Shown one piece after another: positions 45,001 through 48,000 of a stretch of DNA of 64,000 nucleotides (positions are counted from its first letter, which is position 1; the number at the start of each line of letters is the position of its first letter). The position numbers are program-made. Origin of the DNA: Ruditapes philippinarum (lineage: Eukaryota); the NCBI RefSeq assembly GCF_026571515.1, contig NW_026860905.1, positions 1-64,000 of the forward strand. The letters run 5' to 3'.

Positions 45001-48000
45001 TATATGTACTTATAATGTTTGTCATTTCAGGTTTTAAAAATATGGCATTTTTATCATTAACCACAGTTCTAGTTGTCTTAGTTTCCATGGATACACAATC
45101 ATTCGCTATGCACATCGATGTCGAATTTGGCAACTTTGAAGGTAACTTTTTCACCTTATTTAAAGCCACCTATCATAAATCTTTACCTATTCCTTCAAAA
45201 TCCAATTCTTAAATTGAGATAGTATTAAAAGTTTATTAAGATGTTCAAAAATCAAATTTATAAATGAAGATACAGTGTAGTATTGTAAATCTATTAAGTC
45301 GAAGCTCATAGAAAACATTCTAAGACAGACCGCTGAAATAAAATATGTGTAATTCGTTTTATTTAATTAACATATGGTTAATTTTGACAACATGAATCAT
45401 TATATTTTTCAGCATTGACTTGCTACACTTGCCCAGATAAACACAACAACAAACAATGCAACAAGTGGGCTCCTGATATCCCTTGTCCATTTAGTAAGTG
45501 TACAAGTTTTCAAAAAAGTAAAAAAGACATAAAAATCAACAGCTAAAACAAAAGCCAAAAAAAAAAAAAAGAGAGAAAAATAAACAAGAAAGAGAAGATT
45601 GATGATAACCATAGGCACATGTTTCGCGGGTTGAGACCCTGTCAAATTTATCTGAATATAACGATTTTAATGTTAAGTATATACGTTCTTTTAATACCCC
45701 CATTTTTTACGTGTAAGAATGGTCCAAGTGCCTATGATACTAACATACCAAACAGTTAATCTGCAGCCTGTCCTGCCACACAGATTCTGTTGTTTCTCAA
45801 TTTTAGTATCTTGATAATGCTTGTTAATTATCATAACTAGTGGATTTGTTTTAAAGTCTATCATACAAACCAGCCGTTGAAGGAACGGACATTTTTTTAA
45901 ATTCAACCACGGATTTATATTACTAATATAAATCCGTGATTCAACTAATTAGCTATAGACTGATCTAATTAAAGTAAACGACATCAATAACTTATAACAT
46001 TTACTTTGTAGGACACACAGTATGCACGACTGTACATCGTTTCAACAACAGCACAGGACAAAGCTTACAGGTGGACAAAATGTGTGCCATGCCAGAACAT
46101 TGTACCAGTGATGACGTGGGTTGCAGGGCTACCGACATAGAAGGAGAAATCGTAAGTTTAAATTATATTGAATTCTAGTTTAATTATAAACTAAACAATA
46201 AGAATTGATCAAATTATAGGCGGAACTTAATGTAAGACTTTTTATGAACTCTGTGTTATTATAAGAACTCTTGTCATTATTGTATTGTATTGTATATATG
46301 CCATGATCACAATATGCCATGACTCTATTATGTCAGTTCGTGAATAAATATATCATCAGCAATTTGAATAAGAAAAAATAATAATAACAATATCAATCAT
46401 TTTAATAAATTTGAACATAACTAGTTGAGACGAAGCAATGCATTTTGCTGAAATTTGCTGATCTTGTGAGTAAACATGTTTATATTTTATGTATCTAAAT
46501 ATAGAGAATACTATCCTAGTGTCTGATATTACAAAGTTTTTCAGACAAGGCTAAAAAGAGCGAATCTCTGCAGAGTCCTTCATTTTTTTTCGTGCCGAGT
46601 CTGATAAATTTTATTTTATCAGACACTTGTTTGGTATTTTATTCATCATGTTTGCATTTTTCACAAGCGTTTCTTCCTTTAAATTTCAAACGTGTTCATG
46701 CCGCGCGCAGTGAAATGCGAAGGATAATATTTTTAAGAAATAGTTTCTAATGTGTTTGTCAAATATAAGAGAGATTTTAAAATCCAACACTGTATTTGAT
46801 TCAAAGTTTAATATTTTCAAACTAGTTGGAGATAAGATATTCCATTCTCTTCATTTTATTTCAATATGCATTGATGAGGTATCTGATAAAGCTGAAGGTG
46901 ACTGATAAAACTGTATTTATCAAGCATGGACTTTATCAACAGAAATCATTGTAATGATATGATAAAAAATAATATTTTATTAAATCTTTTATTTACAGGA
47001 ATGCATTTCCTGCTGTACAGTATCCTATTGTAACGTCGCCGTACCGTATAACGTTACTACGTCACAGACGCTATCCATTTCTCAGACTGGTTCAACAGGA
47101 AGTCACGTGTCGATTATAGACTGGTTAATGCTTGTTGCTACATTTTCGTTGACAACTTTAGGCAACATCTGAAATGCATTATATGCGTTAAAGTAGAAGT
47201 GCAGCCTTCCAAGTGCTATATATAATATAATTTAATCCGTAAAAATAAAGACAGACAATAAACAAATTTCATGGTCAATCTATGTGAGAAGCTGTTTGAT
47301 GTGAAAATCGTTATGTCAACTTGCAATTACTTGATGAACTTGCAAGTGATTTATTCTATGGTATCAGTGAGGAAATATTTATATTTGTTTATATATTTAT
47401 GTACTTGCATATGAATAATTAAACTGAGTAGTTTAAAAAAAGCCTTGTTCTTTTTCTATATATATGCACATACTTTTGAAAAAAGGAATTAAGGAAACGA
47501 AAGACTCCCATATTACAACTAAAAAAGCAACAGAAAAAAAACACCAAGGGAATGGTCTTTTTTTTTTATACATTTTAAGAACGGATATGCGTTCGCACGT
47601 GCGCGCATGTGTACTGGCAGACTTACATAAGCTTCGTTACCTCATACGTATCCTCTGCTCAGAAACGGATTATGTAAATTATTTCTCACGAAAACATACA
47701 CGTTCAATGTGAAAATTAAACCTTCTGATTCTGATTATAAATAACCTGTCAGCATTTGTAGTTATCTCACGCTGCAAGATAGGAGTGTTACTTTGGCTAT
47801 CGCCCGTTTTCCGTCCTCTTCTGAGTTAAATGCCGAGATGACTGGGATATTTTTTAATAAAACTTCATGTTGGTCCAGGAACTCGTACATAATATGTTAA
47901 CTCCGCCTTCTGTCCTGTCCGTCAAAATCTCTAGGAAATTGGTCAACACTTAATTAACTGTTAACCAATATTGATAGTTGCCTTTTCCTAATAATAACTA

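What the first reader, a model, noticed from the sequence alone, without database searches (positions are those of the whole stretch)
45901..45945. Internal control: the empty site of the footprint survives in the paralogous Ly6 intron
Seen: copy A intron 2 reads ATTCAAC[31-bp palindrome]ATTCAACTAATTAGCTA, while copy C reads a single ATTCAACTAATTAGCTA (62118 onward). This shows the 7-mer is a real TSD. It also suggests that insertion and putative excision both post-date the recent divergence of the two copies, so the element was recently active.
Basis: seen in the sequence. Interest (0 to 1): 0.7.

Follow-up and report, generated by a model that had tools for sequence, protein, structure and literature searches.

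The report
Clam transposon excision scar, empty-site confirmed
A 31-base palindrome in a clam Ly6-like gene intron is most likely the scar left when a P-element-type jumping gene cut itself out, and two more such scars lie in the same 64 kb.

Summary
Copy A reads ATTCAAC (45901-45907), a perfect 31-bp palindrome (45908-45938), then ATTCAAC (45939-45945). The paralogous intron in copy C has one ATTCAAC at 62118, with homology on both sides (110 of 127 aligned flank positions identical).

The window is Manila clam, Ruditapes philippinarum, not human.

The palindrome is not unique. The same arms occur at 749-783 and 37247-37277, each flanked by its own perfect 7-bp duplication (GTTAAAC, GTTTGAT). 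The three copies differ only at the centre. They keep 17+17, 13+17 and 16+15 nt of one terminal repeat, with 1, 1 and 0 filler bases. No arm exceeds 17 nt.

This is the architecture of Drosophila P-element donor-site end-joining products, where transposase leaves 17-nt tails on each flank (PMC2895639). Within the P superfamily, 7-bp duplications are reported for Galileo and 1360.

Best reading (0.6): excision scars of a P-superfamily transposon. No full-length element or P-type transposase was seen, and the clam genome could not be searched.

Its premise of a "recent" duplication does not, because the two introns are only 86% identical.

The parts
45901..45907 (.). Left copy of the 7-bp target-site duplication ATTCAAC, site 3 (the finding)
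45908..45938 (.). 31-bp perfect palindrome made of 16 nt of the left terminal repeat and 15 nt of the right, with no filler
45939..45945 (.). Right copy of the 7-bp duplication ATTCAAC
62118..62124 (.). Unoccupied (empty) target site ATTCAAC in the paralogous intron of copy C
742..790 (.). Site 1: GTTAAAC, then a 35-bp palindrome at 749-783 (17 nt + 1 filler base + 17 nt), then GTTAAAC
37240..37284 (.). Site 2: GTTTGAT, then a 31-bp near-palindrome at 37247-37277 (13 nt + 1 filler base + 17 nt, with one CpG transition in the right arm), then GTTTGAT. It lies in an intron of a plus-strand P450 gene, between exon ORFs 36938-37222 and 37602-37871.
45413..45493 (+). Ly6/uPAR-like exon 2 of copy A (LTCYTC... 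motif); the intron with the palindrome starts at 45494
46012..46151 (+). Ly6/uPAR-like exon 3 of copy A; the intron with the palindrome ends at 46011

Best explanation
The three palindromes are donor-site scars of a cut-and-paste DNA transposon of the P superfamily, of the kind that makes 7-bp duplications like Galileo and 1360.

Inferred sequence of events at each site:
1. An element with terminal repeats beginning CACGGATTTATATTACA inserted and duplicated 7 bp of target.
2. Its transposase later cut it out. It cleaved one strand at the element/duplication junction and the other strand 17 nt inside the terminal repeat, as Drosophila P transposase does. Each flank therefore kept a 17-nt 3' tail of repeat sequence.
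3. Host end joining trimmed 0-4 nt, added 0-1 nt and ligated the tails.
4. What remains is a 31-35-bp palindrome between the two copies of the duplication.

Shown here: the three sites, their duplications, the shared arm sequence, the different centres, the 17-nt ceiling on arm length, and the empty paralogous site.

Inferred: the former presence of a full element, the superfamily, and the 17-nt staggered cut.
For: 1. Three sites share the arms and each has its own perfect 7-bp direct repeat. Chance for three fixed 7-mers is about 2.6e-12. The blind scan finds only these sites, against 0.03 expected.
2. The empty site survives in the paralogue.
3. The six arm lengths are 17, 17, 13, 17, 16 and 15. 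Three sit at the maximum of 17 and none is longer. Centres carry 1, 1 and 0 filler bases, and the candidate 18th bases disagree between sites (G or C at site 1, T at site 2).
4. Drosophila P{wa} end-joining junctions have the same layout: duplication, up to 17 nt of the left repeat, 0-3 nt of microhomology or a short insert, up to 17 nt of the right repeat, duplication. The commonest short-microhomology classes are 14+(AT)+14 (14 isolates) and 15+(TA)+15 (5 isolates) (PMC2895639, section 7 with Table 1 read whole).
5. The 17-nt stagger is described as atypical among cut-and-paste transposases (PMC7776569 and PMC10983969, passages).
6. Within the P superfamily, 7-bp duplications are reported for Galileo and 1360 (PMC3698922, passages). 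The Galileo consensus is GTANTAC (PMC4168063, passages).
7. All 3 of 3 duplications here start GT in one orientation (GTTAAAC, GTTTGAT, GTTGAAT). 10.8% of window 7-mers do so, giving 0.0013 for three.
8. The termini start CA, as in Drosophila P and zebrafish Pdre2.
9. A bivalve survey states that bivalves hold at least one element of each of the 17 DDE superfamilies considered, a list that includes P (PMC10294476, section 11 and passages).
Against: - No full-length or longer non-autonomous element with these termini is in the window. The other three matches at up to 3 mismatches are single, unpaired and within chance (9 found, 5.4 expected).
- No THAP or P-transposase domain was found in 112 of the 114 stop-to-stop ORFs of 70 aa or more. 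The two not sent are antisense overlaps of the KY-like ORF.
- The clam genome could not be searched, so copy number and the parent element are unknown.
- The 17-nt ceiling is defined by the longest of only three copies, so it is partly circular.
- Three scars and no element in 64 kb is a high density for excision scars.
- The GT match was noticed after the sequences had been seen.
- The bivalve survey's manually curated library lists no P family.
Confidence: 0.6

Rival explanations
1. The 31-35-bp palindrome is itself a mobile unit, a very small MITE. It is moved in trans by a transposase that needs only about 15 nt of each end, and the central differences arose later by mutation at the palindrome centre.
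For: It has terminal inverted repeats plus target duplications, with three copies and no longer relative in 64 kb. The site 3 centre can be derived from the site 1 centre by one 4-bp deletion (sequences). MITEs are abundant in bivalves (PMC10294476, passage).
Against: Three copies have three different centres, while the arms differ at only 1 of 95 positions. Deriving site 2 from site 1 needs two events. In the P element and Galileo the transposase THAP-domain binding sites lie 41-70 bp from the ends, outside what is retained here (PMC3688188, passages). Two ends separated by 0-5 bp could hardly be paired; this last point is inference.
Confidence: 0.1
2. They are remnants of a transposon of another or unknown superfamily. 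Either an extreme internal deletion by aborted gap repair left only the tips, or a different transposase also cuts well inside its ends.
For: No transposase is linked to these ends. Internal-deletion derivatives are common for cut-and-paste elements (PMC4168063, passage). Dada elements also give 6-7-bp duplications (PMC3706591, passages).
Against: Aborted gap repair should give widely varying and often much longer retained ends, not six arms of 13-17 nt. Dada elements lack terminal inverted repeats and insert into small-RNA genes, and the window has no tRNA or Rfam match. From recall, not checked in any call: hAT makes 8-bp duplications and leaves no terminal-repeat sequence, and the other superfamilies common in bivalves make 2-4-bp or TTAA duplications.
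Confidence: 0.2
3. This rival concerns timing only. The insertion and scar predate the Ly6 duplication, and copy C lost the 38 bp precisely, by slippage between the 7-bp repeats across the palindrome or by gene conversion.
For: Palindromes between direct repeats are deletion-prone (general knowledge, no call). The copies show patchy identity of 72-94%, which is compatible with conversion.
Against: There are no substitutions in 45 bases where about 3.5 are expected at the age of the duplication, P about 0.03. The arms are identical to those of the unlinked site 1.
Confidence: 0.08
4. The insert is an assembly or sequencing artefact.
For: Palindromes can be produced by library chimeras. There is an assembly gap elsewhere in the window (56361-56535).
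Against: There are three separate sites with three different, perfect 7-bp duplications and one shared arm sequence.
Confidence: 0.02

Closest known systems
Drosophila melanogaster P-element excision footprints (end joining of the 17-nt tails; P{wa} junctions in PMC2895639, Table 1)
   Same: The layout is the same: duplication, up to 17 nt of each terminal repeat, 0-3 nt of microhomology or filler, duplication. The result is a palindrome of about 30-35 bp. The arm-length ceiling is also 17.
   Different: The duplication is 7 bp rather than 8. The terminal repeat sequence is unrelated beyond the first CA. The host is a bivalve. These are natural genomic copies, not products recovered in a laboratory cross. 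No transposase has been identified.
Galileo and 1360 (Hoppel), the P-superfamily families with 7-bp duplications
   Same: 7-bp duplications. Galileo's target consensus GTANTAC has GT/AC edges, and all 3 of 3 duplications here start GT in one orientation.
   Different: In the papers read, Galileo and 1360 are described only from Drosophilidae. Galileo has very long repeats.
Zebrafish Pdre2 / THAP9
   Same: It is a P-type element outside insects, with termini starting CA (passages).
   Different: 8-bp duplication and 13-bp terminal repeats. I did not see its donor-site cut position stated in the passages read.
MITEs of the P superfamily, such as BuT5
   Same: Non-coding, with terminal repeats and duplications, and dependent on a P-type transposase.
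   Different: BuT5 is about 1 kb, has a homogeneous internal sequence and retains the transposase binding site. The clam palindromes are 31-35 bp with three different centres.
Dada transposons
   Same: 6-7-bp duplications, and present in oyster.
   Different: They have no terminal inverted repeats and insert specifically into U6, U1 or tRNA genes. Neither feature holds here.

Membership tests
P superfamily of DNA transposons | Target-site duplication of 7 or 8 bp | tested here: met
   Perfect 7-bp duplications at 3 of 3 sites. The empty site is present in the paralogue. The family range comes from PMC3698922.
P superfamily of DNA transposons | Donor cleavage staggered by 17 nt, so that flanks keep up to 17 nt of each terminal repeat | tested here: met
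   Arm lengths are 17, 17, 13, 17, 16 and 15, with none above 17. They match the P{wa} junctions. This is indirect: it is inferred from three scars, and the ceiling is set by the longest one.
P superfamily of DNA transposons | Transposase with an N-terminal THAP domain and an RNase-H-like catalytic domain | not testable with these tools
   There is no autonomous copy in the window: 112 of 114 ORFs of 70 aa or more were scanned against Pfam with no THAP or P-transposase hit. The clam genome was not available.
P superfamily of DNA transposons | Palindromic target motif with GT...AC edges (Galileo GTANTAC; P and 1360 ANAGT/ACTNT) | tested here: inconclusive
   3 of 3 duplications start GT in one orientation, and 1 of 3 also ends AC. 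Chance for three is 0.0013. The sample is three and the comparison was made after seeing the data.
P superfamily of DNA transposons | Terminal inverted repeats starting CA (a CANRG consensus is recalled from Yuan and Wessler 2011, which was not held and not seen) | tested here: met
   The arms start CACGG, or CATGG in one arm. Drosophila P and Pdre2 start CAT. The consensus itself is recalled only.
Dada superfamily | No terminal inverted repeats; insertion into small-RNA genes | tested here: not met
   The inverted arms are perfect. There are 0 tRNA genes and 0 Rfam matches in the window. The family's features come from PMC3706591.
MITE (amplified miniature element) | Many copies descended from one progenitor and sharing the internal sequence | tested here: not met
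   There are 3 copies with 3 different centres. Only three copies could be examined.
Ly6/uPAR (three-finger) domain gene (host gene) | LU-domain cysteine pattern matched by Pfam | tested here: inconclusive
   Exon 2 has E 1.1e-5 and exon 3 has E 7.8e-5 to consecutive parts of UPAR_LY6_2. Each is below the gathering score on its own.

The most novel reading that the evidence does not exclude
A P-superfamily transposon has been active very recently in the Manila clam and cuts its ends with the same 17-nt stagger as the Drosophila P element. Its excisions therefore leave recognisable 30-35-bp palindromic scars. These scars would be a countable genomic record of excision events. The three scars within 45 kb could be the trail of local hops by one element.
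Probability: 0.35. Interest if true: 0.65.

Novelty: new member of a known kind. Interest (0 to 1): 0.45.

Why it matters
Excision scars of most cut-and-paste transposons are only a few bases long and cannot be recognised in a genome. P-type scars are long enough to be found by sequence.

If the reading is right, three things follow:
- The 17-nt staggered cut, known from Drosophila biochemistry, would be conserved in a mollusc lineage that makes 7-bp duplications.
- Excision events could be counted and dated genome-wide in a bivalve.
- A recently active DNA transposon would be flagged in an aquaculture species.

For the scan itself, the paralogue comparison is a sound internal control for the target duplication.

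Tried and rejected
Rejected readings:
- Dada superfamily (6-7-bp duplications). It has no terminal repeats and targets small-RNA genes. There are no tRNA or Rfam hits in the window.
- hAT and the other superfamilies. This rests only on recalled duplication lengths and footprint types.

Searches that found nothing:
- A parent element in the window. There are no further paired ends at up to 3 mismatches.
- A P-type transposase in the window. None was found among the 112 ORFs scanned.
- Other families of similar scars in the window.
- A report of natural P-type scars. Literature search listed 15 of 244 papers, and none of the 15 contained the phrase 'excision footprint'. Searches also gave none. 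This covers only the open-access library.

Limits on what could be checked:
- The default MAFFT alignment placed the gap awkwardly, so I replaced it with an affine-gap alignment.
- Three papers were not held and are cited from recall only: Staveley et al. 1995, Yuan and Wessler 2011, and Feschotte and Pritham 2007.
- Genome contigs holds only bacteria and archaea and was not used.
- No clam genome could be searched, so copy number, longer copies and polymorphism stay unchecked.
- No supplementary files were opened. The Galileo target-site tables and the bivalve repeat library could bear on the superfamily call.

Full report
**What is there.**
Window 45901-45945 reads ATTCAAC, a perfect 31-bp palindrome (45908-45938), then ATTCAAC. 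The second 7-mer runs on into TAATTAGCTA. The same 17 letters occur once more in the window, at 62118, without the palindrome.

An affine-gap alignment of 45820-46010 with 62030-62210 shows homology on both sides of the site. 110 of 127 aligned positions are identical, and copy A has 38 extra bases, the palindrome plus one 7-mer. The default MAFFT alignment shows the same homology with the gap slightly misplaced. Just upstream of the 7-mer the copies differ (AA against CTTC), which fits the overall divergence.

**Organism and gene.**
A 535-aa open frame at 13911-15518 is 99% identical to the NCBI entry 'kyphoscoliosis peptidase-like isoform X2 [Ruditapes philippinarum]'. The window is therefore Manila clam, not human. 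G+C is about 32%.

The host gene is Ly6/uPAR-like:
- Exon 2 (about 45413-45493, with an LTCYTC start) matches UPAR_LY6_2 profile positions 8-32, E 1.1e-5.
- Exon 3 (about 46012-46151) matches positions 37-74, E 7.8e-5.
- Each exon alone is below the gathering score.

I searched the exons one by one and made no joined model. The palindrome lies in the 518-bp intron between them, 73 bp upstream of the acceptor. Exon 3 occurs twice in the window and exon 2 three times. Only copies A and C have this intron.

**The palindrome is one of three.**
The 15-nt arm occurs as inverted pairs at two more places:
- 749-783, a 35-bp palindrome flanked by GTTAAAC on both sides.
- 37247-37277, 31 bp, flanked by GTTTGAT on both sides, in an intron of a P450 gene.

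The three further matches at 3 mismatches are single and within chance (9 found, 5.4 expected). A blind scan looked for 7- or 8-bp direct repeats around a 16-80-bp spacer with palindromic ends. It returns these three sites plus one hit that is part of an unrelated foldback repeat. Thirty Markov shuffles gave a mean of 0.03 hits. Of the 14 palindromes in the window with arms of 12 or more, only these three are flanked by 7-bp direct repeats. One search flagged only site 2, because its arm extension ran into the repeats at the other two sites; searches show all three.

**Anatomy.**
Taking the 17-nt arm of site 1 as the reference:

| Site | Left arm kept | Filler | Right arm kept | Note |
|---|---|---|---|---|
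| 1 (749-783) | 17 | 1 | 17 | |
| 2 (37247-37277) | 13 | 1 | 17 | one C-to-T change at a CpG |
| 3 (45908-45938) | 16 | 0 | 15 | |

The arms differ at 1 of 95 positions, and all other differences are at the centre. No arm goes beyond 17 nt. The candidate 18th bases disagree between sites.

**What it most likely is.**
Drosophila P transposase cuts one strand at the element end and the other strand 17 nt inside the terminal repeat. Each donor flank is left with a 17-nt tail of repeat sequence. This stagger is described as atypical among cut-and-paste transposases (PMC7776569 and PMC10983969, passages; PMC2895639, passages).

Table 1 of PMC2895639 (section 7 read whole) lists junctions recovered after P{wa} excision. 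They consist of the duplication, up to 17 nt of the left repeat, 0-3 nt of microhomology or a short insert, up to 17 nt of the right repeat, and the duplication again. The commonest short-microhomology classes are 14+(AT)+14 (14 isolates) and 15+(TA)+15 (5 isolates). The clam palindromes have this same architecture and the same ceiling.

Several other features agree with the P superfamily:
- Galileo and 1360 make 7-bp duplications (PMC3698922, passages).
- Galileo's target consensus is GTANTAC (PMC4168063, passages).
- All 3 of 3 clam duplications start GT in one orientation. 10.8% of window 7-mers do, which gives 0.0013 for three. I made this comparison after seeing the data.
- The termini start CA, as in Drosophila P and zebrafish Pdre2.

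I therefore read the three palindromes as excision scars of a P-superfamily transposon.

**What is missing.**
- No longer element with these ends is in the window.
- No THAP or P-transposase domain was found in 112 of the 114 stop-to-stop ORFs of 70 aa or more. The two not sent are antisense overlaps of the KY-like ORF.
- I could not search the clam genome.
- The 17-nt ceiling rests on six arms and is defined by the longest copy.
- Three scars without any element in 64 kb is dense. Local hopping of P elements (PMC7776569, passage) or a long history of purely cut-and-paste movement could explain it, but both are inference.
- A bivalve survey says bivalves hold at least one element of every DDE superfamily considered, P included. 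Its curated library lists no P family (PMC10294476).

**Rivals.**
- *A self-mobile tiny MITE.* This is disfavoured by three different centres against near-identical arms. In the P element and Galileo, the transposase binding sites lie 41-70 bp from the ends, outside what is retained here (PMC3688188, passages).
- *Aborted gap repair.* This should give more variable and longer ends.
- *Dada.* It shares the duplication length but lacks terminal repeats and targets small-RNA genes (PMC3706591). The window has no tRNA or Rfam match.
- *Assembly artefact.* This does not fit three sites with three different perfect duplications.

**Timing.**
The two introns are 86% identical (339 of 394 aligned positions; Jukes-Cantor distance 0.154). 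Other blocks of the duplication range from 72 to 94%. So the duplication is not recent.

An insert as old as the duplication should carry about 3.5 changes in its 45 bases. It carries none (P about 0.03). Precise loss from copy C or gene conversion is not excluded. The better evidence for recent activity is the 1-in-95 difference among arms at three unlinked sites.

**Comparison and novelty.**
The mechanism is a known one, the P-element donor-site footprint. The new points would be the host (a bivalve), the 7-bp-duplication lineage, and recognising such scars as natural genomic features. My literature searches turned up no report of natural P-type scars. They cover only the open-access library, and three relevant papers were not held and are cited from recall. 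I rate this as a new member of a known kind, of moderate interest.

The N run at 56361-56535 was left alone.

Noticed in passing
window 3656-3896, 35993-36239, 43187-43406: Three copies (67-88% alike) of a foldback-type MITE of about 215-245 bp. It has long inverted arms, ends GAGCCGCG.../...CGCGGCTC, and abuts TA-rich flanks. It is unrelated to the CACGG palindromes.
   Followed up: partly
window 51032-55713: An LTR retroelement with 201-bp LTRs 98.5% alike (51032-51232 and 55513-55713). Its minus-strand frames carry integrase domains (Integrase_H2C2, rve, SH3_Tf2-1) at 51211-52567. It sits between Ly6-like copies.
   Followed up: partly
window 58578-61716: A 1.56-kb tandem duplication (58578-60131 against 60139-61716, 95% identical) inside the copy C region. 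It gives an extra Ly6 exon 2 at about 60066-60131 that is cut off at the duplication boundary.
   Followed up: partly
window 24300-30100 (minus) and 32200-37900 (plus): Two multi-exon cytochrome P450 genes lie head to head. Scar site 2 is in an intron of the plus-strand gene.
   Followed up: no
window 40821-41294: An open frame with a weak match to the mariner-type Transposase_1 domain (E 0.0035, below the cut-off), just upstream of Ly6 copy A.
   Followed up: no
window 56361-56535: A run of 175 N, an assembly gap or masked stretch. It was left untouched.
   Followed up: no
window 741-791: At site 1 the duplication GTTAAAC is itself nearly self-complementary, so the palindrome extends to 25-nt arms with one mismatch. 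This fits a palindromic target motif but is a single case.
   Followed up: no
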